In this document: in pieces, positions 1 to 61,536 of the stretch
How positions within the stretch are numbered: the first letter of the stretch is position 1
How the letters are laid out: each line of letters opens with the position of its first letter
Source of the DNA: a virus
Direction: 5' to 3' (one strand)
Virus record (IMG/VR): IMGVR_UViG_3300047557_002158
Location: 4,045-68,044 of that record
DNA length: 64,000 nt
Program-made: the position numbers and the translations under genes
The notes under the pieces: generated by a model
Told to the model about the DNA's origin: nothing
The model's input: only the letters and a program-made list of their open reading frames with translations
Database searches by the model: none

Positions 1-894
1 AGTCCAGAATATTACTGGAAAATAATTGAACACCTGGATGAAATCGGTAGTGAGGCTGGCATATCATTTACCAGTAACCTGTGGCCATTCTATAAGAATC
101 CTAAAAAATGGGCCAAACTATTTACACATCCTCGCATGGGTATTACAACCAGTTTTCAATATGGTGGTGGTAGACTTAAAGGTGACTTGACAGAATTCAG
201 TGAAGAAGATTTTTGGAACGTCAGTGATATGATGCTGGACGTTGTTGGTTATCGTCCAGATTTCATAAGTGTTATCACTAAGGAGAATGAACATCTAGCC
301 ATCAAGAACGTTGAACTGGCCAAGAAAATGGATGTGGAATGTAAATTGAACTATGCGTTCAGTAGTGGACCTCCGGTAAAATTCAAAAACATTATCATGG
401 GACAACAGGGGCAACCATATTTACTGGCAGATATTTACAAAATATATATTGAAATATGGAAAAAAGATTTGACGCAGTGGGAATATAACACAAAACAGAT
501 GGTCAAAAGATTGATTGGCCATACAACAACTTGTCCACAAAATAGAAACTGTGATGAAAGCATTCGAACATTACAACCTAGTGGCGATTATTACAGTTGC
601 GGTGCATTTGGTGATGATAAAATCTATCAAATAGATTTCGAAAAAGAAATGTCAGGTGAAAAAATATTTCCTTTGAAATTTCAACCAGAAATACAAAGTC
701 TTAAACAATCCTGTTTCACCTGTCCAATGTTTCAAATTTGTAATGGTTGCAAGAAGACAATTAAGGATTTAAAAGATCATGACTTGGTGGAAGAACATTG
801 TTCAAAAATGAAACTATTGGCACCAGACATTATTGAATCTAATGGTTTGACGGGTGCTTTAGAACTCACACCATATGTTAGAGAATATACATGA
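1..894 (+). CDS. Radical SAM protein with SPASM-like C-terminal Fe-S domain (5' truncated by window edge)
   Basis: Frame is open from base 1 (SPEYYWKII...). C-terminal Cys pattern CPQNRNC...YSCG...CFTCPMFQICNGC...HC is SPASM-like. The CxxxCxxC motif would lie upstream of the window. Confidence 0.75.
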   Translation, partial: SPEYYWKIIEHLDEIGSEAGISFTSNLWPFYKNPKKWAKLFTHPRMGITTSFQYGGGRLKGDLTEFSEEDFWNVSDMMLDVVGYRPDFISVITKENEHLAIKNVELAKKMDVECKLNYAFSSGPPVKFKNIIMGQQGQPYLLADIYKIYIEIWKKDLTQWEYNTKQMVKRLIGHTTTCPQNRNCDESIRTLQPSGDYYSCGAFGDDKIYQIDFEKEMSGEKIFPLKFQPEIQSLKQSCFTCPMFQICNGCKKTIKDLKDHDLVEEHCSKMKLLAPDIIESNGLTGALELTPYVREYT

Positions 895-55706: not shown

Positions 55707-55735
55707 TTGACAAAACGCCTATATACCTTTATAAT
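55707..55735 (+). promoter_or_regulatory. Sigma70 consensus promoter
   Basis: TTGACA-17-TATAAT. Confidence 0.85.
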
Positions 55736-55756
55736 TTAATTTTTTGGAGAAATTCT

Positions 55757-55864
55757 GTGTTGCACATATCGAAGCCCGTTCTATTAACATGCGAGTATCG
55801 CACACCATTTATTGGTAGCGATAATCAGTCATGGGTGAGCGGAAAAGGGGTATGTGGAACCTGA
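55757..55864 (+). CDS. Putative 35-aa peptide (not in ORF track)
   Basis: GGAG RBS then GTG; MLHISKPVLLTCEYRTPFIGSDNQSWVSGKGVCGT; lies between promoter and terminator. Confidence 0.45.
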   Translation: MLHISKPVLLTCEYRTPFIGSDNQSWVSGKGVCGT

Positions 55865-55894
55865 TAGAATCTAAAAGTAAATAAAAAGTTTCAC

Positions 55895-55926
55895 AAACCC
55901 CAGACCTAAAAAATCTGGGGTTTTTT
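55895..55926 (+). terminator. Rho-independent terminator
   Basis: AAACCCCAGA...TCTGGGGTTT plus T run. Confidence 0.85.
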
Positions 55927-56010
55927 GTTGTAATCTTACAACGTGTGTATTGACAAAGAAAAAATTTCTGATATAATACGCAACTGTTCTTTAAAAAGTT
56001 AAGTGTAATT
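55927..56010 (+). promoter_or_regulatory. tRNA array promoter 1: palindrome, sigma70 promoter, boxA-like block
   Basis: GTTGTAATCTTACAAC; TTGACA-16-TATAAT; TGTTCTTTAAAAAGTTAAGTGTAATT. Confidence 0.8.
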
Positions 56011-56012
56011 AA

Positions 56013-56086
56013 TCCCGGATTGTGTAGTGGTAGCACAGCAGACTTTGACTCTGTTAGTATAAGTTCGATTCTTATTCCGGGTGCCA
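56013..56086 (+). tRNA. trnQ: tRNA-Gln(TTG)
   Basis: GCAGA-CTTTGAC-TCTGT anticodon arm, GTTCGA, CCA. Confidence 0.92.
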
Positions 56087-56180
56087 TATTAAAGCATGTT
56101 ATAGTGACGCATGAGCAGGTCATTAACTTCCGCTGGTTACGTCAATCGTAAGTGGGTGAAGGTAATATGCTTTAATATGG
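56084..56180 (+). ncRNA. Stem-closed structured RNA element A
   Basis: 18-bp terminal inverted repeat 56084-56101/56163-56180 (one G-U). Confidence 0.55.
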
Positions 56181-56199
56181 TAATATAAGGAGATGTACA

Positions 56200-56658
56200 A
56201 TGAAAAAAATTGTATTGTCTATATTATTGTGTATGCCATTGTTTGCAAATGCATGTAAAGGTTATGTAATAGGTTTTAAAGGTTTGAATGAATCTTTTAA
56301 TTCTGTTGCGTTTCAAAAATACGCGGATCGTTTAGGTTATTGTGGTAAATCTTTTTCCTGGTTTCAAGATAAAGAAGCATTACAGTACATTCAAACACTA
56401 AAGAAACCATATCGCCTTTATGGTTTTAGTAGAGGCGCACAGACAGTTTCGGATGTGTTAAAACAAACGAAAACAAAACCTGAATATGTTTTAACAATCG
56501 GTGCATACAAAACAACAAATGTAAATTTTGATAAACATCGTGTTCGTTATGATAACTTCTTTGATCAATCTGGTGTTGGTCAGAAAAGTCCAGGAGTATT
56601 TTTCAATGTATCTCATGCGGATATAGAAAAAGAAGTAAGTGAATTTTTGATAGAATAA
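56200..56658 (+). CDS. Secreted small alpha/beta-hydrolase-like protein
   Basis: Signal peptide MKKIVLSILLCMPLFANA; GFSRG nucleophile elbow. Confidence 0.65.
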   Translation: MKKIVLSILLCMPLFANACKGYVIGFKGLNESFNSVAFQKYADRLGYCGKSFSWFQDKEALQYIQTLKKPYRLYGFSRGAQTVSDVLKQTKTKPEYVLTIGAYKTTNVNFDKHRVRYDNFFDQSGVGQKSPGVFFNVSHADIEKEVSEFLIE

Positions 56659-56659
56659 T

Positions 56660-56751
56660 GGAAGCGTGCCAGAGCCCGGTTTATTGGAACAGTCTTGAAA
56701 ACTGTCGTGTCAGAAATGGCACCGTGAGTTCGAATCTCACCGCTTCCACCA
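56660..56751 (+). tRNA. trnS: tRNA-Ser(TGA)
   Basis: ACAGT-CTTGAAA-ACTGT, long variable arm, CCA. Confidence 0.93.
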
Positions 56752-56767
56752 ATTTTAGGAGTTTAAA

Positions 56768-57343
56768 ATGCCAGCAGTGTTTCTTGTAAGTGACACACAC
56801 TTTGGTCATGCTGGTGTGTGCCGGTTTCTTCGTGAAGATGGAACAAAACTTAGGCCATGGGATTCACCAGAAGAAATGGATGAAGCAATGGTTAAAATGT
56901 GGAACGAAACAGTTCGTCCAAATGATAAAGTTTACCATCTTGGCGATGTTGTGATCAATCGTAAAGCTCTAAGTATTTTACATAGGCTTAACGGTGATAA
57001 AATTCTGATTCGTGGCAATCATGATATCTTTAAACTTGAGGATTATACTCGACACTTTAGAGATATTCGTGGTTACCATGTGATGAACGGGATGATTCTT
57101 TCACACATCCCTGTCCATGAAGAAAGCCTTGGAAGGTTTGGTACAAACATTCACGGTCATTTACACGCTAATCGTGTCATGAAAGTGGACGAGTATGGCA
57201 CTTCATGGATTGATCCACGTTACCATTGTATTTGCGTTGAGCAAACTGATTTCCGCCCTATATTGTTTGAAGATGTGTTGAAGCGTATCAGAGAAGAAGG
57301 TGGTGGTATCGGTTTCCGTAATGGTAACGGTCCAGCAATGTGA
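56768..57343 (+). CDS. Calcineurin-like metallophosphoesterase
   Basis: SDTHFGH, HLGD, GNHD, HGHLH. Confidence 0.92.
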   Translation: MPAVFLVSDTHFGHAGVCRFLREDGTKLRPWDSPEEMDEAMVKMWNETVRPNDKVYHLGDVVINRKALSILHRLNGDKILIRGNHDIFKLEDYTRHFRDIRGYHVMNGMILSHIPVHEESLGRFGTNIHGHLHANRVMKVDEYGTSWIDPRYHCICVEQTDFRPILFEDVLKRIREEGGGIGFRNGNGPAM

Positions 57344-57347
57344 AAGA

Positions 57348-57439
57348 GGTGAGGTGCCTGAGAGGCCTAAAGGAGCGGTTTGCTAAACCGTCGATTCACG
57401 AAAGTGGGTCCGTGGGTTCGAATCCCACCCTCACCACCA
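57348..57439 (+). tRNA. trnS: tRNA-Ser(GCT)
   Basis: GCGGT-TTGCTAA-ACCGT, long variable arm, CCA. Confidence 0.93.
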
Positions 57440-57459
57440 TTTATTTTGAAAGGTAAATT

Positions 57460-57648
57460 ATGCGAGTTAAAACTGATAAAAATTTTAAGATGGCTAAAAC
57501 GACCAAACGGTTGTTGACACTTCTTCCTTTTAAGGATGAAGAACAGCGTACAGCATTTAAACATGCTATGATTGATGCACAAGTTTTGGGCAACATTGTT
57601 CCAAAAACTGTAAAAGATAAAAACTTGAGGGAAGTTGAAGCTGATTAA
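57460..57648 (+). CDS. Hypothetical basic protein
   Basis: 62 aa, AAGGT RBS, fills the gap between tRNAs. Confidence 0.65.
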   Translation: MRVKTDKNFKMAKTTKRLLTLLPFKDEEQRTAFKHAMIDAQVLGNIVPKTVKDKNLREVEAD

Positions 57649-57738
57649 CCCGCCGTAGCTCAGGGAGAGCAGGGGGTCTTATAAGCCCTTAATCTAGATA
57701 AGGTCCAGGATGTGGTTCGACTCCACACGGCGGGACCA
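57649..57738 (+). tRNA. trnI: tRNA-Ile(TAT) with long variable region
   Basis: CCCGCCG/CGGCGGG acceptor, CTTATAA loop, about 21-nt variable region, CCA. Confidence 0.8.
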
Positions 57739-57740
57739 AT

Positions 57741-57818
57741 GTGGGTGTGGCGGAGTGGTCCAACGCAACAGTCTGCAAAACTGTAAAGCCGTCAGTTCAA
57801 ATCTGACCACCCACTCCA
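57741..57818 (+). tRNA. trnC: tRNA-Cys(GCA)
   Basis: ACAGT-CTGCAAA-ACTGT, U73, CCA. Confidence 0.92.
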
Positions 57819-57824
57819 AATATT

Positions 57825-57908
57825 GTTGTTGTTCTACAACACACTGGTTGACAAAAATACCAGTTCGTGTAGAATACAATCTTGTTCTTTAAAAAGTTAA
57901 GTGTAATT
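57825..57908 (+). promoter_or_regulatory. tRNA array promoter 2: palindrome, sigma70 promoter, boxA-like block
   Basis: GTTGTTGTTCTACAAC; TTGACA-16-TAGAAT; identical 26-nt TGTTCTTTAAAAAGTTAAGTGTAATT. Confidence 0.8.
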
Positions 57909-57912
57909 TTGT

Positions 57913-57988
57913 GGACCTATCGTCTAACGGTTAGGACGCTGCCCTTTCAAGGCGGAAACGTGGGGTTCGATTCCCCCTAGGTCTACCA
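57913..57988 (+). tRNA. trnE: tRNA-Glu(TTC)
   Basis: CTGCC-CTTTCAA-GGCGG, CCA. Confidence 0.92.
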
Positions 57989-58135
57989 TTTGTTTAGTGT
58001 TATCAAGGTATCGCATATGGACGCATATGCTATGCGGGCCTAATCTGCCGGAAACAGGTCCTGAGATAACTGCATCGGCTTTGGAGAGGAAGCACCTCAC
58101 TCCTAAATTTGCACGATAACACTAAACAAATGGTA
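57984..58135 (+). ncRNA. Stem-closed structured RNA element B
   Basis: Perfect 21-bp terminal inverted repeat 57984-58004/58115-58135; internal hairpins. Confidence 0.6.
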
Positions 58136-58141
58136 ATTTGT

Positions 58142-58215
58142 GGGGGTATAACTTAGTGGTAAAGTATCCGGCTTTTAACCGGAAAACCAGAGTTCAATTC
58201 TCTGTGCCCCTACCA
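58142..58215 (+). tRNA. trnK: tRNA-Lys(TTT)
   Basis: TCCGG-CTTTTAA-CCGGA, CCA. Confidence 0.92.
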
Positions 58216-58292
58216 AAGTTTTGGGAGAATCGCTGCGAAGCGTATTCTTAAACGACCTGTAGAACTCCCAGGCGTCCCGTAGTTAGTATTTT

Positions 58293-58385
58293 GGAGGTCT
58301 TGATGCTATGGCGTGTGCATCCCCGGACTGTAAATCCGGTCCCTCGTGGTAAACATTCGCGGTTCGACTCCGTGGACCTCCACCA
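58293..58385 (+). tRNA. trnY: tRNA-Tyr(GTA)
   Basis: CCGGA-CTGTAAA-TCCGG, variable arm, CCA. Confidence 0.9.
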
Positions 58386-58625
58386 GAACGTGCCGATTCG
58401 TCACCGGCTAGTCTGACCCAGACGATGAGAAGTGGTTTGATACCCACGGGTGGTTCTGAGGCGAAGAAGCCTCACAGTAGAAATACTGCGGTCTAACCAA
58501 ACCGGCGCTGGCAATGCGAGAATCCTCTTTGGTCGTGAAGCTGATGGAGCTGTGTGTGATGGATAGTTCAAAAAACTATCTTGATGCAGTATATGGACAG
58601 CCGCAGAGAGGAAGCAACTAATTTT
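58386..58625 (+). ncRNA. About 240-nt multi-helix RNA of unknown class
   Basis: GC-rich, no credible ORF, at least six helices including a GAAA tetraloop. Confidence 0.6.
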
Positions 58626-58700
58626 GGTTCCAAAGTGTTCATGGACGCACGTATGCCTGTCACGCATAAAGAAGGGGATCGTTACCCCTTGGAACCGCCA
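58626..58700 (+). tRNA. trnD: tRNA-Asp(GTC)
   Basis: TATGC-CTGTCAC-GCATA; atypical T loop ATCGTTA; CCA. Confidence 0.9.
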
Positions 58701-58704
58701 AGAT

Positions 58705-58740
58705 TATAAATAAGATTAACAAAAAGGAGTTAATCTTATG
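58705..58740 (+). promoter_or_regulatory. Late promoter plus start-codon-sequestering hairpin of the HNH gene
   Basis: TATAAATA 58705-12; ATAAGATTAAC/GTTAATCTTAT 11-bp stem covering the ATG. Confidence 0.75.
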
Positions 58741-59070
58741 AAAAAGTGTAAATGGCACTTGTGTCAAAAAGAAACAGAAAAAACATATTGTTCAGTTAAA
58801 TGTAAAAATAAACAATCGGTGCAAAATCGAAGAAAAAATATAAAAGAGAGGTCTATAAATTATAAAGGTGGTCGTTGTGAAAATTGCGGTTATTCTAAAT
58901 GTAACGAAGCTTTAGAATTTCATCACAGAGACCCAAACGAAAAAGATTTTGGTTTATCTGCTCATGGCATCACACGTTCATGGGAAAAGGTAAAACAAGA
59001 ATTGGATAAATGTATTCTTTTATGTGCAAATTGCCATAGAGAAGAACATTTTTTAACAAAGTTAATTTGA
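58738..59070 (+). mobile_element. HNH endonuclease (putative homing endonuclease) inside the tRNA array
   Basis: CENCGY...LEFHH.DP...CILLCANCHREEH; N-terminal Cys motif YCSVKC. Confidence 0.88.
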
Positions 59071-59077
59071 ATTTTAT

Positions 59078-59154
59078 TCCCCAGTAGCTCAGTCGGTAGT
59101 AGCGTCTGCCTGTTAAGCAGAAGGTCCGTGGATCGTGCCCACGCTGGGGAGCCA
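59078..59154 (+). tRNA. trnN: tRNA-Asn(GTT)
   Basis: TCTGC-CTGTTAA-GCAGA, CCA. Confidence 0.92.
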
Positions 59155-59160
59155 TACAAT

Positions 59161-59237
59161 GCCCTCTTACTCCAATTGGTAGAGAGGACGGTCTTAGAAG
59201 CCGTAAAGTCTCAGTTCGAATCTGAGAGAGGGCACCA
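59161..59237 (+). tRNA. trnL: tRNA-Leu(TAG) lacking a long variable arm
   Basis: ACGGT-CTTAGAA-GCCGT, 5-nt variable loop, 77 nt. Confidence 0.85.
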
Positions 59238-59243
59238 TATTAC

Positions 59244-59318
59244 ACCCTTGTAGCTCAGAGGCAGAGCACCGTCTTGATAAGGCGTAGGCCGACATTTCGA
59301 AACTGTCCAAGGGTACCA
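59244..59318 (+). tRNA. trnI: tRNA-Ile(GAT)
   Basis: TTGATAA loop, ACCCTTG/CAAGGGT acceptor, CCA. Confidence 0.88.
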
Positions 59319-59370
59319 AACAACTCGCCTTGACTGATGGCGTAGAGAAGGATAAGTAATCAGTCAAATT

Positions 59371-59445
59371 GGGCTGTTAGTGCTAATGGGAACACATCTG
59401 GTTTGCAACCAGAAATTGAGAGTTCGATTCTCTCACGGTCCACCA
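59371..59445 (+). tRNA. trnA: tRNA-Ala(TGC)
   Basis: TCTGG-TTTGCAA-CCAGA, G3-U70 pair. Confidence 0.92.
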
Positions 59446-59451
59446 AATTTC

Positions 59452-59527
59452 GCTCCTGAAGCATTGCTGGCGATGCGCCGGATTTGTAACCCGGAGATAG
59501 TCTGTTCGATTCAGACCGGGAGCACCA
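59452..59527 (+). tRNA. trnT: tRNA-Thr(TGT)
   Basis: TTTGTAA loop, CCA. Confidence 0.88.
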
Positions 59528-59534
59528 ATTTTTT

Positions 59535-59610
59535 CTCCGATTAGCGTAGCCTGGTAGCGCCCCTGCTTTGGGAGCAGGTAGCGGGGGTTCGAATCCCTCA
59601 TCGGAGACCA
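59535..59610 (+). tRNA. trnP: tRNA-Pro(TGG)
   Basis: CCTGC-TTTGGGA-GCAGG, CCA. Confidence 0.93.
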
Positions 59611-59614
59611 ATAT

Positions 59615-59689
59615 GGTTGTATGACGTAGACGGATGCGTACCGCCCTCATAAGGCGAGGAGGTTGGATCGTTACCAACTACAACCACCA
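59615..59689 (+). tRNA. trnM: tRNA-Met(CAT), probably elongator
   Basis: CTCATAA loop, GGTTGTA/TACAACC acceptor, atypical T loop. Confidence 0.8.
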
Positions 59690-59691
59690 CA

Positions 59692-59766
59692 CGGTCTTTA
59701 GTTCAACGGATAGAATAATAGGCTACGAACCTATAGATGGGGATTCGATTTCCTCAGGACCGGCCA
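59692..59766 (+). tRNA. trnR: tRNA-Arg(ACG)
   Basis: ATAGG-CTACGAA-CCTAT, CCA. Confidence 0.9.
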
Positions 59767-59771
59767 AAAAT

Positions 59772-59845
59772 ATCTCGGTAGTGTAACGGCAGCACCATGG
59801 TCTCCAAAACCATTAGTGAGGGTTCGAATCCTTCCCGGGATGCCA
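59772..59845 (+). tRNA. trnW: tRNA-Trp(CCA)
   Basis: ATGGT-CTCCAAA-ACCAT, CCA. Confidence 0.92.
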
Positions 59846-59871
59846 GTATAAGTAATAGAAAGTAGGTTAAT

Positions 59872-60342
59872 ATGTTCAACAAAAAAATTGATCTTGAAGA
59901 AGTAAAAGCCTTTGTAGAGAATTGTGGTCCAGATACCAAAATTTATCTTGGCTGTGATTCTGAAAAAGTCAAAGTGAACGGTGTGTGGTATGCTGATTAC
60001 ATTACTGCTGTTGTTGTTCATATTGACAGTAAACATGGTTGTAAAATTTTTGGTCAGATTGAAAGAGAAAGGGATTTCGATCAACAAAAAAATAAACCTA
60101 GGTTGCGTTTGATGACGGAAGTTTATAAGGTTGCAGATATGTACCTAAGTCTTTCGGCAATCATAGCAAATGATATTGAAGTGCATCTTGACATTAACCC
60201 AGATATGATGCATAATTCAAGCATTGTTGTTAACGAAGCGATTGGCTACATAAAGGGTATGTGTAATGTTGTGCCTCTAGTGAAACCAAAAGCATTTGCA
60301 GCATCTTATGCGGCTGATAGACTGAAAAGTTTTGCAGCATAA
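59872..60342 (+). CDS. RNase H-like YkuK (DUF458) family protein
   Basis: IYLGCDS, RLMTEV, EVHLDIN, KPKAFAASYAAD. Confidence 0.82.
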   Translation: MFNKKIDLEEVKAFVENCGPDTKIYLGCDSEKVKVNGVWYADYITAVVVHIDSKHGCKIFGQIERERDFDQQKNKPRLRLMTEVYKVADMYLSLSAIIANDIEVHLDINPDMMHNSSIVVNEAIGYIKGMCNVVPLVKPKAFAASYAADRLKSFAA

Positions 60343-60349
60343 GTAAAAA

Positions 60350-60423
60350 GCGGGATTAGTTTAATGGTAAAACTACAGATTTCCAATCTGTTGTTGACAG
60401 TTCGATTCTGTCATCCCGCTCCA
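60350..60423 (+). tRNA. trnG: tRNA-Gly(TCC)
   Basis: ACAGA-TTTCCAA-TCTGT, U73, CCA. Confidence 0.92.
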
Positions 60424-60496
60424 TATAAAAGCACATTATCTCAGTTTCCTCATCACAAGGGTTGAGGCGAGATTAACAATAGTGTGCTTCTATATG
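60422..60496 (+). ncRNA. Stem-closed structured RNA element C
   Basis: 18-bp terminal inverted repeat 60422-60439/60479-60496 (one G-U, one mismatch); arm similar to element A. Confidence 0.5.
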
Positions 60497-60502
60497 TCTC
60501 TT

Positions 60503-60576
60503 GCGGGATTGGTTTAATGGTAAAACGAAACCTTGCCAAGGTTTAGTCAACAGTTCGATTCTGTTATCCCGCTCCA
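60503..60576 (+). tRNA. trnG: tRNA-Gly(GCC)
   Basis: AAACC-TTGCCAA-GGTTT, CCA. Confidence 0.92.
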
Positions 60577-60577
60577 T

Positions 60578-60653
60578 GGAGTTATTAGTGTAGTGGACTG
60601 CACCCCATGTTGTGACCGTGGTAGTATGAGTTCGATCCTCATATAACTCCCCA
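60578..60653 (+). tRNA. trnH: tRNA-His(GTG)
   Basis: CCATG-TTGTGAC-CGTGG, G-1:C73. Confidence 0.9.
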
Positions 60654-60657
60654 GAAT

Positions 60658-60731
60658 AGCCCGTTAGTTTAATGGTAGAACCCCGCCCTTACAAGACGGT
60701 CACGGCAGTTCGATTCTGTCACGGGCTACCA
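60658..60731 (+). tRNA. trnV: tRNA-Val(TAC)
   Basis: CTTACAA loop, CCA. Confidence 0.9.
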
Positions 60732-60734
60732 ATC

Positions 60735-60808
60735 GCTCTTATAGGTAAATGGCATACCGCATCCTTGGTAAGGATGTATCCCAAGTTCGATTCTTGGTAA
60801 GAGCACCA
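60735..60808 (+). tRNA. trnT: tRNA-Thr(GGT)
   Basis: CATCC-TTGGTAA-GGATG, CCA. Confidence 0.9.
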
Positions 60809-60810
60809 AT

Positions 60811-60887
60811 GCCGCTATGGTGAAGGTGGTCCTCACGTTGGTCTGAAGAACCAAAGAACCTAGTTCGATTCTCAGGTGGCGGCACCA
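60811..60887 (+). tRNA. trnF: tRNA-Phe(GAA)
   Basis: TTGGT-CTGAAGA-ACCAA, bulged T stem, CCA. Confidence 0.85.
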
Positions 60888-60899
60888 AAAGGAGTTTAT

Positions 60900-61094
60900 A
60901 TGTACATTTCTTCTATTCAAACATACACGGACATATATTTTGATATGATTCGTACAACAGAAAGAAAAACCATATCTAATGATAATGGTGAGAAGGTCAA
61001 AGAAATATTAGATTTTTCTTATCGTCCTTACACACATAATGGTCAATTAAATTCGACTGCACAAACAGGTCAAATTATTGATATAATGGCGTAA
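60900..61094 (+). CDS. Hypothetical protein
   Basis: ATG at 60900 after AAGGAG; ends GQIIDIMA. Confidence 0.65.
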   Translation: MYISSIQTYTDIYFDMIRTTERKTISNDNGEKVKEILDFSYRPYTHNGQLNSTAQTGQIIDIMA

Positions 61095-61171
61095 GCCCCG
61101 GTGACGGAATTGGTATACGTGTTTGACTCAAAATCAAAATTTTAGGAGTTCGACTCTCCTCTGGGGCACCA
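61095..61171 (+). tRNA. trnL: tRNA-Leu(CAA) lacking a long variable arm
   Basis: TTTGA-CTCAAAA-TCAAA, Leu-type D arm, 5-nt variable loop. Confidence 0.87.
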
Positions 61172-61172
61172 C

Positions 61173-61201
61173 TTGACAAATTACACTTAACTTTGTATAA
61201 T
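61173..61201 (+). promoter_or_regulatory. Sigma70 consensus promoter for the last tRNAs
   Basis: TTGACA-17-TATAAT. Confidence 0.85.
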
Positions 61202-61210
61202 ATCTCTATT

Positions 61211-61293
61211 GCGGGTGTGGTGGAATGGTAGACACAGGAGACTTAAAATCTCCCGCCTTAAGCGTGTGGGTTCGACTCCCGCCACCCGCACCA
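61211..61293 (+). tRNA. trnL: tRNA-Leu(TAA)
   Basis: GGAGA-CTTAAAA-TCTCC, variable arm present. Confidence 0.94.
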
Positions 61294-61297
61294 AAAA

Positions 61298-61373
<76 letters not shown>

Positions 61374-61375
61374 AT

Positions 61376-61450
61376 CCGGCTATCGTATAATGGATAATAC
61401 AAGGGTCTTCTAAGCCTTGAATGTGGGTTCGATTCCTGCTAGCCGGGCCA
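61376..61450 (+). tRNA. trnR: tRNA-Arg(TCT)
   Basis: AGGGT-CTTCTAA-GCCTT, CCA. Confidence 0.9.
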
Positions 61451-61463
61451 TAATAAATACTGT

Positions 61464-61536
61464 AGCGGGTTGGTGAAAAGGTATCACAGTGGGCTCATAA
61501 TCCTCAGTTCCGGTTCGACTCCGTGGCCCGCAACCA
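61464..61536 (+). tRNA. trnfM: Initiator-type tRNA-fMet(CAT), possibly degenerate
   Basis: Unpaired 1:72, GGG-CTCATAA, CCCGCAACCA end; imperfect anticodon and T stems. Confidence 0.7.

What the first reader, a model, noticed from the sequence alone, without database searches (positions are those of the whole stretch)
56084..60496. Family of stem-closed RNA cassettes whose long stems begin in the CCA end of a tRNA
Seen: three non-coding inserts after tRNA-Gln (56084-56180, 18 bp), tRNA-Glu (57984-58135, perfect 21 bp) and tRNA-Gly (60422-60496, 18 bp). Each is bounded by a long inverted repeat whose left arm includes the tRNA CCA or CA. Arms A and C are related (CCATATTAAAGCATGTTAT vs CCATATAAAAGCACATTAT), the deviations are mostly G-U (RNA-level selection), and the enclosed GC-richer cargo differs and has its own hairpins. 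A and B follow the first tRNA after each boxA promoter. Inference: RNase III-type processing stems that release distinct small RNAs, as rRNAs are released from rrn transcripts, or miniature tRNA-targeting mobile elements. I cannot assign them to any RNA family I know.
Basis: partly seen in the sequence, partly recalled or inferred. Interest (0 to 1): 0.75.

Follow-up and report, generated by a model that had tools for sequence, protein, structure and literature searches.

The report
Clamp-stem RNA cassettes behind phage tRNAs
Three small non-coding modules in the tRNA operon of an uncultured T4-like lake phage are each clamped by a roughly 20-base-pair RNA stem that starts on the CCA end of the tRNA in front; they belong to a large, uncatalogued phage-only family with swappable interiors that is probably cut out of the transcript by a double-strand-specific RNase, and what the freed small RNAs do is unknown.

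Summary
All three inserts are stem-closed and each stem starts in the CCA of tRNA-Gln, tRNA-Glu or tRNA-Gly. They are members of a family. In 88 related IMG/VR loci, 88 of 1149 tRNA 3' ends carry such a stem of 17 or more pairs, against 4 of 1056 random places. The helix runs from C74 for about 20 bp, is kept by compensatory changes (14 of 21 pairs; 0 of 500 shuffles reach it), and its deviations are mostly G-U on the transcribed strand. Cargo A (43 or more viral contigs) and cargo B (96 or more) are conserved, covarying RNAs. Cargo C is an orphan. The same cargo sits behind different tRNAs. Elements favour the first tRNA after a boxA-like leader (31 of 42 against 44 of 1105). I found no Rfam family, no paper, no cultured phage and no real cellular genome with it. 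The best reading is an RNase III-type processing stalk that frees the tRNA and a small RNA; this is untested. A transposon reading is not supported. This scan had already noted the same family on other phage DNA.

The parts
55950..55977 (+). Promoter-like site P1 (12 of 12 consensus letters, TG extension) that heads the first tRNA unit
55985..56009 (+). 25-nt boxA-like leader block, identical to 57883-57907. It makes up nearly the whole 5' leader of tRNA-Gln
   Evidence: Read. The motif is associated with elements in relatives
56013..56086 (+). tRNA-Gln(UUG). Its G73 and CCA (56083-56086) are in the left arm of element A
56082..56182 (+). Element A. The clamp stem is 56082-56104 / 56160-56182 (core repeat 56084-56101 / 56163-56180). 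It encloses a 59-nt two-hairpin cargo. The ribosome-binding site of ORF 56200-56658 follows within 10 nt
57848..57875 (+). Promoter-like site P2 (11 of 12) that heads the second tRNA unit
   Evidence: An RNA-library contig begins at 57882
57883..57907 (+). Second copy of the 25-nt boxA-like leader block
57913..57988 (+). tRNA-Glu(UUC). Its last five nucleotides, TACCA, form the start of the left arm of element B
57984..58135 (+). Element B. A perfect 21-bp clamp (57984-58004 / 58115-58135) encloses a 110-nt multi-helix RNA. tRNA-Lys starts 6 nt after it, at 58142
60188..60216 (+). Promoter-like site (11 of 12) inside ORF 59872-60342, upstream of tRNA-Gly(UCC). No boxA block follows it. Whether it is used is unknown
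60350..60423 (+). tRNA-Gly(UCC). Its terminal CA is in the left arm of element C
60422..60496 (+). Element C. The clamp is 60422-60439 / 60479-60496 (17 of 18 pairs, A.C at stem position 7). It encloses a 39-nt hairpin cargo with no relative found. tRNA-Gly(GCC) starts 6 nt after it, at 60503

Best explanation
Each insert is an RNA cassette in the polycistronic tRNA transcript of a T4-like phage. A constant, AU-rich helix of about 20-22 bp forms between the tRNA's own (N73)CCA plus the next ~17 nt and a complementary 3' arm. The helix holds a variable, GC-richer small RNA at its tip.

I think the helix is a processing stalk. A double-strand-specific endonuclease, most likely the host's RNase III because the phages carry none, cuts it near its middle. 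This separates the tRNA from what follows. It leaves a short AU-rich 3' tail that exonucleases trim back to CCA, and it releases the cargo capped by a half stem. Where a tRNA follows, RNase P sets the other end a few nucleotides past the 3' arm.

The cassette is modular. The stem is the working part for processing, while the cargoes are independent small RNAs of unknown function that are exchanged between sites and phages, probably by recombination through the shared arms.

Shown: the structure, its selection at RNA level, its anchoring on CCA, its modularity, its restriction to phage tRNA arrays, and its link to promoter-proximal tRNAs.

Inferred: cleavage, the enzyme, release and stability of the cargo, and the exchange mechanism.
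For: Structure and excess over chance: (88 of 1149 against 4 of 1056).

Register. Over 71 unique elements (3 of them tRNA-Lys(CUU) artefacts), pairing starts at the first C of CCA in 69 of 71, holds to position 19, and collapses at position 20 (15 of 71 paired). The arm length mode is 20-22 (47 of 78; range 17-26). That is two turns of A-form RNA, the size class of RNase III substrates (my knowledge).

RNA-level selection. In 48 elements with unrelated cargo, 90.6% of cells pair against 79.5% in shuffles (0 of 500 reach it). 14 of 21 pairs change on both sides. Slid registers pair at 29-50%. At positions 0-17 there are 93 G-U cells against 23 A.C/C.A cells, and 17 of those 23 are at position 7.

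Need for an endonuclease. The 3' arm ends 0-9 nt before the next tRNA, or overlaps its first 2-3 nt, in 34 of 85 elements. After RNase P cuts there, a 3' exonuclease would meet a 20-bp helix (inference).

The stem works without cargo, and cargo exists without the long stem. One 17-bp hairpin has a 3-nt loop (L077). Cargo A also occurs with only a 6-7-bp stem in tandem arrays.

The cargoes are real RNAs. A has 8 of 35 pairs compensatory in 13 sequences. B has 22 of 40 in 66 sequences.

Precedent. [quoted passage not shown] I saw this title in the reference lists of PMC5371410 and PMC6511841, and the site is listed as intergenic rimP-metY in PMC5371410 (passages). In my fold that hairpin starts at A76 of metY.

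Restriction to tRNA arrays. In four complete relatives and this contig, all paired arm motifs lie in the tRNA cluster.
Against: I have no cleavage data. The four RNA libraries that hold the stretch are kept as contigs, which cannot show ends. One contig (X2 record 14, 57882-58127, no differences) runs uncut from the start of unit 2 through tRNA-Glu into the 3' arm of B. So uncut precursor, or contaminating DNA, exists.

No RNase III domain (PF14622) was found in 5 large relatives, 4 of them complete, and the host is unknown.

The arms are more conserved in sequence than pairing requires. The distal 13 bp of the B stem never vary in 66 sequences, and the commonest arm type recurs behind 10 or more tRNA species. 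This hints at a sequence-specific partner or a DNA-level role that RNase III does not explain.

Position 7 is unpaired in 19 of 48 elements, and a mismatch could weaken cutting.

RNase III antideterminant rules were not tested.
Confidence: 0.55

Rival explanations
1. Protective clamp, not a cut site. The long stem only shields a stable small RNA from exonucleases. The ends are made by single-strand or tRNA-specific enzymes: an RNase Z/BN-type or RNase E-type cut at the tRNA 3' end, and RNase P at the next tRNA. The released RNA would keep the whole stem.
For: Pairing starts exactly at C74 in 69 of 71 elements. That is where a cut after the discriminator would leave a flush hairpin. The next tRNA follows the 3' arm within 0-9 nt in 34 of 85 elements. 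T4's own tRNA-operon RNAs, species 1 and 2, are made without such a stalk (PMC2330249 passage).
Against: A protective stem need not be a uniform 20-22 bp, nor exist without cargo (L077). A CCA buried in a helix is a poor substrate for known 3' tRNA enzymes (my knowledge). Cargo A survives with a 6-7-bp stem in tandem arrays.
Confidence: 0.17
2. DNA-level shuffling modules. The shared arms are mainly short homologies that let T4-type recombination swap small genes in the tRNA region, as proposed for PeSL motifs. The RNA hairpin would be a tolerated by-product.
For: The same arms carry about 58 unrelated cargo clusters among about 90 elements. Cargo A sits behind tRNA-Gln (23), tRNA-Lys (4) and tRNA-Val (1). 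At the orthologous site between tRNA-Gln and the same downstream ORF, nine loci hold eight cargo clusters and two loci are empty. PeSL papers: PMC2839356 and PMC4122927 (search listing and start of abstracts only).
Against: This does not explain the G-U excess on one strand, the compensatory changes, the exact CCA register or the constant helix length. It is compatible with the best explanation rather than exclusive of it.
Confidence: 0.12
3. Regulatory hairpin of the operon head. Together with the boxA-like leader, the stem acts on transcription (a nut- or put-like antitermination signal) or gates maturation of the first tRNA by hiding its CCA.
For: 31 of 42 tRNAs that come first after a boxA-like motif carry an element, against 44 of 1105 others. 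For tRNA-Gln the figures are 17 of 18 against 2 of 21.
Against: 44 elements are not promoter-proximal. tRNA-Lys is never first and still has 14 of 32. Tandem arrays exist. The leader shows no complementarity to the arms beyond shuffles. The loci are relatives, so part of the association is shared descent.
Confidence: 0.08
4. Miniature inverted-repeat transposable element, or other selfish DNA, that inserts at tRNA 3' ends.
For: There are terminal inverted repeats and variable presence at a given tRNA. The same element sits behind different tRNAs.
Against: There is no target-site duplication at the window junctions or at filled against empty sites. No transposase was seen. All copies are co-oriented with the tRNAs. 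The G-U asymmetry and covariation are RNA-level. Copies are confined to tRNA arrays in complete genomes. The interiors are conserved structured RNAs.
Confidence: 0.05

Closest known systems
RNase III hairpin between tRNA metY and rimP in the E. coli metY-nusA-infB operon (Regnier and Grunberg-Manago 1989; title seen in reference lists of PMC5371410 and PMC6511841, and passages of PMC5371410)
   Same: It follows the first gene of the operon, which is a tRNA, and is a long hairpin cut by RNase III that frees the tRNA from the downstream RNA. In my fold the hairpin starts at A76 of the tRNA. This is like element A, which lies between tRNA-Gln and an ORF.
   Different: It is a single irregular hairpin, not a repeated family. 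It has no constant 20-bp stem, no interchangeable structured cargo, and is not placed between tRNAs.
RNase III processing stalks of stable-RNA operons (the stems that bracket 16S and 23S rRNA) and phage T7 early sites such as R1.1 (recalled; not read here)
   Same: A helix of about two turns is formed by sequences that flank a stable RNA in a boxA-headed polycistronic transcript. Cutting it releases the enclosed RNA.
   Different: Here the 5' strand of the stalk is the CCA end of a tRNA. The enclosed RNAs are 20-180 nt and of about 58 unrelated kinds in one sample. Cleavage has not been shown.
Phage T4 species 1 and species 2 RNAs (rnaC, rnaD) in the T4 tRNA gene cluster
   Same: They are small stable non-tRNA RNAs of unknown function, co-transcribed with phage tRNAs (annotation; PMC2330249 passage).
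   Different: There is no clamp. Folds of rnaD and rnaC with their flanks show no long closing stem that starts in the upstream CCA. rnaC ends in a T-arm-like hairpin. None of the 65 tRNA ends in T4, Melnitz, Mosig, DLP_6 and S-SKS1 has a CCA-anchored stem above background.
PeSL motifs of T4-type phages (PMC2839356, PMC4122927; listing and start of abstracts only)
   Same: They are conserved short stem-loop-containing motifs in T4-type genomes, proposed to mediate modular gene shuffling.
   Different: By their titles and abstracts, PeSLs are promoter-plus-stem-loop or terminator motifs that flank protein genes in hyperplastic regions. The present stems flank small RNAs, start on tRNA CCA and show RNA-level covariation.
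Intervening segment of permuted two-piece tmRNA genes (Rfam RF04321)
   Same: A CCA-ended tRNA-like piece is followed by a segment that is removed from the precursor.
   Different: There is only a chance-level match (57961-58047, 18.2 bits against a gathering score of 47, E 1.4). It covers the T arm and CCA of tRNA-Glu.

Membership tests
RNase III substrate (processing stalk) | Regular double helix of about 20-22 bp (two turns) | tested here: met
   Pairing runs from C74 to position 19 and fails at position 20. Arm length mode is 20-22, in 47 of 78 elements. B is a perfect 21 bp.
RNase III substrate (processing stalk) | Cleavage of both strands with a 2-nt 3' overhang, dependent on RNase III | not testable with these tools
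   Only assembled contigs of RNA libraries were available. They cannot show ends.
RNase III substrate (processing stalk) | An RNase III is present in the phage or the host | tested here: inconclusive
   PF14622 was found in 0 of 5 large relatives, 4 of them complete. The control rang in 8 of 14 genomes. The host is unknown.
RNase III substrate (processing stalk) | No antideterminant base pairs in the proximal and distal boxes | not tested
   The rules are known for the E. coli enzyme only (recalled). The host enzyme is unknown.
Any Rfam 15 family | Match at or above the family's gathering score | tested here: not met
   Only tRNA matches reach gathering. With E up to 10, nothing lies on the three cargoes except a chance-level tmRNA_permuted hit that overlaps tRNA-Glu.
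MITE / DNA transposon | Terminal inverted repeats | tested here: met
MITE / DNA transposon | Target-site duplication flanking the repeats | tested here: not met
   The flanks of A, B and C show no direct repeat. Filled and empty tRNA-Gln sites differ by the element alone, without a clear duplication.
MITE / DNA transposon | Copies in either orientation and spread over the genome | tested here: not met
   All copies are co-oriented with the tRNAs. Paired arm motifs occur only in the tRNA cluster of 4 complete genomes and this contig.
T4 species 1 / species 2 type stable RNA | Non-tRNA RNA co-transcribed in the phage tRNA cluster | tested here: met
   Position between tRNAs on one strand behind promoter-like sites. 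An RNA-library contig bridges tRNA-Glu and B.
T4 species 1 / species 2 type stable RNA | Sequence or fold like rnaC or rnaD | tested here: not met
   No phage-record match to the elements. The T4 RNAs lack the clamp.
PeSL shuffling motif | Promoter plus stem-loop that flanks protein genes | tested here: not met
   No promoter-like site lies inside A, B or C. The enclosed sequence is non-coding structured RNA.

The most novel reading that the evidence does not exclude
The clamp is a dedicated phage platform for small-RNA genes, a kind of RNA cassette system. One constant, sequence-specific stem, welded to the CCA of promoter-proximal and high-demand tRNAs (Gln, Glu, Lys), serves two roles. At RNA level it is the signal that releases the cargo. 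At DNA level it is the homology through which phages trade cargoes. The hundreds of fast-turning-over cargoes would be effectors aimed at the host (decoys, sponges or anti-defence RNAs) rather than processing debris. The invariance of parts of the stem would then reflect a still unknown protein partner.
Probability: 0.2. Interest if true: 0.85.

Novelty: new variant of a known kind. Interest (0 to 1): 0.7.

Why it matters
If the stems are cut as proposed, these phages solve tRNA 3' maturation and small-RNA production with one reusable module. Their tRNA arrays would then hide a large, unannotated reservoir of small structured RNAs. In one sample of 88 loci I counted about 58 cargo kinds. Two of the window's cargoes alone occur in at least 43 and at least 96 viral contigs.

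This would be a natural counterpart of engineered tRNA-scaffold and tRNA-spacer arrays used to express RNAs. It would also give a simple handle, the arm motif, for mining phage small RNAs from metagenomes.

Two links are new and unexplained: the link to the first tRNA after a boxA-like leader, and the link to tRNA-Gln, tRNA-Glu and tRNA-Lys. Both are testable.

No cultured phage with the module was found, which limits experiments to heterologous expression for now.

Tried and rejected
Phage records (INPHARED). The 5-kb region gave no near match. In distant mode only tRNAs, an HNH gene and the phosphoesterase matched. Element C at E up to 10 gave three chance hits. So I found no cultured phage with the arm sequence.

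Structural analogues in cultured T4-like phages. None of 65 tRNA ends in T4, Melnitz, Mosig, DLP_6 and S-SKS1 exceeds 13 pairs.

Cellular genomes. The cargo B motif gave 0 stretches. The arm motif gave 120 or more stretches, as expected by chance for a degenerate 17-mer. Of the 80 held, only 2 have a partner arm, and both are contigs under 2 kb binned into freshwater MAGs (L256 behind tRNA-Lys, and L328). I read these as mis-binned phage fragments.

Cargo C. There was no exact 18-mer match in IMG/VR and no blastn-short hit in 215 loci, 1.9 Mb.

Phage-encoded RNase III. None was found in 5 relatives. PF00636 and dsRBD families were not searched.

Leader-arm pairing, on the model of rRNA leader and spacer. 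It was not better than shuffles: 253, 260, 279 and 64 of 300 shuffles did as well.

RNA libraries. A and C have next to no contig cover, which says nothing. The contig that covers tRNA-Glu plus B ends at 58127, inside the 3' arm. It is one contig in one run, so I do not count it as an end. Another contig (X1 record 2, 56722-57957, 13 differences) crosses P2, so DNA or read-through is present in these libraries.

T4 rnaC and rnaD as relatives: rejected.

Permuted tmRNA: chance-level only.

Coding reading. The mechanical ORFs over the inserts (56020-56151, 57997-58119, 60364-60465) start inside tRNAs or cross stems. The alignments show indels and paired changes, not codon patterns.

Literature. 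Five searches listed no paper that describes CCA-anchored stems or cassettes in phage tRNA arrays. One preprint of possible relevance (a genome-language-model mining of non-coding elements, listed) could not be opened. Supplements were not consulted.

Rows dropped.
- One search kept 3 tRNA-Lys(CUU) rows that are artefacts; the stem there belongs to the next tRNA-Lys(UUU).
- drop six stems that enclose tRNA-His.
- Alignment A3 holds 48 of the 68 genuine unique elements (those up to 135 nt). Two rows in it (L024, L027) have another arm type and align badly.
- A2 leaves out 2 of 67 references (a truncated one and a false one) and adds the window.
- A1 uses the 13 unique sequences up to 110 nt out of 36 stem-bearing matches.

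Full report
WHAT THE DNA IS. The window is 64 kb of a 68-kb IMG/VR virus contig (CheckV 41%). Its large ORFs match the T4-type portal, major head protein, tail sheath, terminase and gp46-like nuclease families. The closest cultured relatives by major capsid protein (about 65% identity) are Methylophilales phage Melnitz and Pelagibacter phage Mosig. Positions 56013-61536 hold 29 tRNA genes, all on the + strand. They are interleaved with a metallophosphoesterase, an HNH-like ORF and a PF04308 RNase H-like ORF.

THE OBSERVATION.
- B has arms 57984-58004 / 58115-58135, a perfect 21 bp.
- A has arms 56084-56101 / 56163-56180, 18 nt at 94%. With G-U pairs it reaches 22 pairs.
- C has 17 of 18 pairs.

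All three fold far better than shuffles (z -7.3, -5.7 and -5.2). They fold together with an intact cloverleaf. The tRNAs end at 56086, 57988 and 60423, so the stems begin in (N73)CCA for A and B, and in CA for C. Both tRNA-Gln and tRNA-Glu are the first gene behind a promoter-like site and an identical 25-nt boxA-like block. No Rfam 15 family matches the inserts, either at gathering score or at E up to 10.

A FAMILY, NOT THREE ODDITIES. The phosphoesterase gene in the array fetched 80 related IMG/VR loci, and more than 599 exist. An arm pattern fetched 7 more.

I then looked for the best stem anchored within a few nucleotides of each tRNA end, allowing one mismatch and G-U pairs. Of 1149 tRNA 3' ends in these loci plus the window, 88 have a stem of 17 or more pairs. 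The figure for random places is 4 of 1056.

Put in register on CCA, 71 unique elements (3 are artefacts of tRNA-Lys(CUU)) show the following:
- C74-G in 69 of 71 and C75-G in 71 of 71.
- Pairing holds through position 19 and collapses at position 20.
- The discriminator is paired in 59 of 71 (46 A-U, 13 G-U).

Arm length peaks at 20-22 (47 of 78).

I made a formal count on 48 elements with unrelated interiors (alignment A3) and the structure I named from the columns:
- 90.6% of cells are paired, against 79.5% in shuffles (0 of 500 reach it).
- 14 of 21 pairs have changes on both sides.
- Slid registers pair at 29-50%.

Non-Watson-Crick cells at positions 0-17 are G-U in 93 cases and A.C or C.A in 23, and 17 of those 23 are at position 7. 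That asymmetry means the pairing is selected on the transcribed strand. These rows are relatives, so cell counts overstate independent events. The several arm types with different sequence but the same register and length are the stronger argument.

THE INTERIORS. Arms are 31% G+C and cargo is 48%. Among about 90 elements, the cargo falls into about 58 similarity clusters (after leaving out six stems that in fact enclose tRNA-His).

The window's cargoes differ in standing.

Cargo A:
- It is a 59-nt two-hairpin RNA. An exact 17-mer from it occurs in 43 IMG/VR stretches.
- In the 36 matches with an enclosing stem, it follows tRNA-Gln 23 times, tRNA-Lys 4 times and tRNA-Val once.
- In several contigs it sits second in a tandem array with only a 6-7-bp stem.
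- Its first hairpin covaries, and 8 of 35 pairs change on both sides in 13 sequences.
- Between close relatives the clamp itself shows G-C to A-U exchanges (column 13/91).

Cargo B:
- It is a 110-nt multi-helix RNA found in 96 stretches.
- 51 copies directly follow tRNA-Glu and about 42 follow another element.
- In 66 sequences, 22 of 40 predicted pairs change on both sides.
- The proximal part of its clamp covaries. It reads CCATTT with AAATGG where a tRNA precedes, and GGTATTA with TAATATC where another element precedes.
- The distal 13 bp never vary.

Cargo C has no relative in IMG/VR by exact 18-mer or in 215 loci by blastn-short.

The stem can also stand alone: L077 is a 17-bp hairpin with a 3-nt loop.

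WHERE THE MODULE OCCURS.
- In four complete relatives (160-214 kb) and this contig, the paired arm motifs all lie inside the tRNA cluster. Only two single one-mismatch hits lie elsewhere, no more than the reversed-pattern control gives.
In the 116 loci held, 130 of 142 motif hits have a partner arm.
- These make 116 distinct elements. 75 of them start on the CCA of a called tRNA: Lys 38, Gln 9, Glu 8, Leu(UAG) 6 and others 14. A further 36 lie within 500 nt of a tRNA.
- In 185,579 cellular species genomes the same motif is a chance word. Only 2 of 80 held matches have a partner arm, and both are on contigs under 2 kb in freshwater MAGs. Cargo B is absent.
- Cultured phages lack it by sequence and by structure (0 of 65 tRNA ends).
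- T4's species 1 and 2 RNAs share only the co-transcription with tRNAs and have no clamp.

POSITION RULES. 31 of 42 tRNAs that come first after a boxA-like motif carry an element, against 44 of 1105 others. By tRNA species:
- tRNA-Gln: 17 of 18 when first, 2 of 21 otherwise.
- tRNA-Glu: 13 of 13 when first, 16 of 37 otherwise.
- tRNA-Lys(UUU): never first, yet 14 of 32.
- The three together: 62 of 121, against 13 of 1026 for all other tRNAs.

The site between tRNA-Gln and one conserved downstream ORF holds eight different cargo clusters in nine loci and is empty in two. So the place is kept while the content turns over. The leader does not pair with the arms.

When a tRNA follows, it follows at once. 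The gap is -3 to 9 nt in 34 of 85 elements, and 6 nt for B and C in the window.

HOW IT MOST LIKELY WORKS.
- After RNase P cuts at the next tRNA, the upstream tRNA would end in a 20-bp helix that 3' exonucleases cannot cross. An endonuclease is therefore needed (inference).
- A regular, AU-rich helix of two turns is the classic substrate of RNase III (my knowledge).
- The often-mismatched position 7 and the near-invariant A-U pairs 8 and 9 lie at the middle of the -2..19 helix, where a dimeric RNase III would cut (inference).
- E. coli offers a direct precedent in the hairpin after tRNA metY. In my fold that hairpin starts at A76.
- The phages carry no RNase III domain (0 of 5), so the enzyme would be the host's.

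I put this reading at 0.55.

Points against it:
- There are no end data.
- One RNA-library contig runs uncut from 57882, the expected start of unit 2, to 58127.
- The stems are more conserved in sequence than RNase III needs.

Rivals are a purely protective clamp, DNA-level shuffling homology (compatible with the main reading), an operon-head regulatory hairpin, and a MITE. The MITE fails on target duplications, orientation, genome spread and RNA-level covariation.

COMPARISON AND NOVELTY. By mechanism this would be a variant of RNase III processing stalks. As a family it is not in Rfam, and five literature searches found nothing on it. What is new is the constant stem welded to CCA, the interchangeable conserved cargoes, the restriction to uncultured phage tRNA arrays, and the bias to boxA-proximal tRNAs and to Gln, Glu and Lys.

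Earlier notes of this scan describe the same family on other phage contigs and reach a similar reading. I formed my reading before opening them. They are not independent evidence.

Noticed in passing
window 58386-58625: A 240-nt structured spacer lies between tRNA-Tyr and tRNA-Asp. RNA-library contigs cover it (X1 record 3, 58218-58521, then runs into adapter letters; X4 record 25, 58406-702, depth 23.5). Parts of it recur in 23 of 215 loci.
   Followed up: partly
window 55707-55930: A perfect promoter-like site (55707-55735) is followed by about 190 nt of non-coding sequence that ends in a GC hairpin plus a T run just before P1. The stretch is related in 13 other loci. It is a candidate stand-alone small RNA.
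   Followed up: partly
window 55985-56009 and 57883-57907: An identical 25-nt boxA-like block forms almost the whole 5' leader of both tRNA units. An RNA-library contig starts at 57882, one base before the second copy.
   Followed up: partly
relatives L028:3984-4160, L040, L013, L048, L038, L039 (after tRNA-Lys): tRNA-His is enclosed by a 20-22-bp stem made of its acceptor stem extended by leader-trailer pairing. This is a different kind of long stem around a whole tRNA.
   Followed up: no
88 loci and an independent IMG/VR sample: Clamp stems sit overwhelmingly behind tRNA-Gln(UUG), tRNA-Glu(UUC) and tRNA-Lys(UUU): 62 of 121 against 13 of 1026, and 55 of 75. By my recall these are the three tRNAs with a 2-thiolated wobble U. 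The reason is unknown.
   Followed up: partly
window 58293-58385 and 58626-58700: ARAGORN calls tRNA-Tyr and tRNA-Asp here. The Rfam tRNA model does not report them, even at E up to 10; Tyr gets only a weak tRNA-Sec hit.
   Followed up: no
window 58216-58292 and 59319-59370: Two further short spacers lie between tRNAs. One is 77 nt, near-identical in 5 loci. The other is 52 nt with a 20-nt imperfect inverted repeat (I3), related in 10 loci. Neither is CCA-anchored.
   Followed up: partly
L251 (E. coli K-12 3318000-3318320): In a plain minimum-free-energy fold, the known RNase III hairpin downstream of tRNA metY begins at the terminal A of the tRNA's CCA.
   Followed up: partly
L256 (1478 nt) and L328 (1803 nt), GTDB genome contigs: Two tiny contigs binned into freshwater MAGs (labelled Ca. 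Planktophila and Bacteroidetes) carry a complete clamp element, one of them behind tRNA-Lys. They are probably phage fragments mis-binned into cellular genomes.
   Followed up: partly
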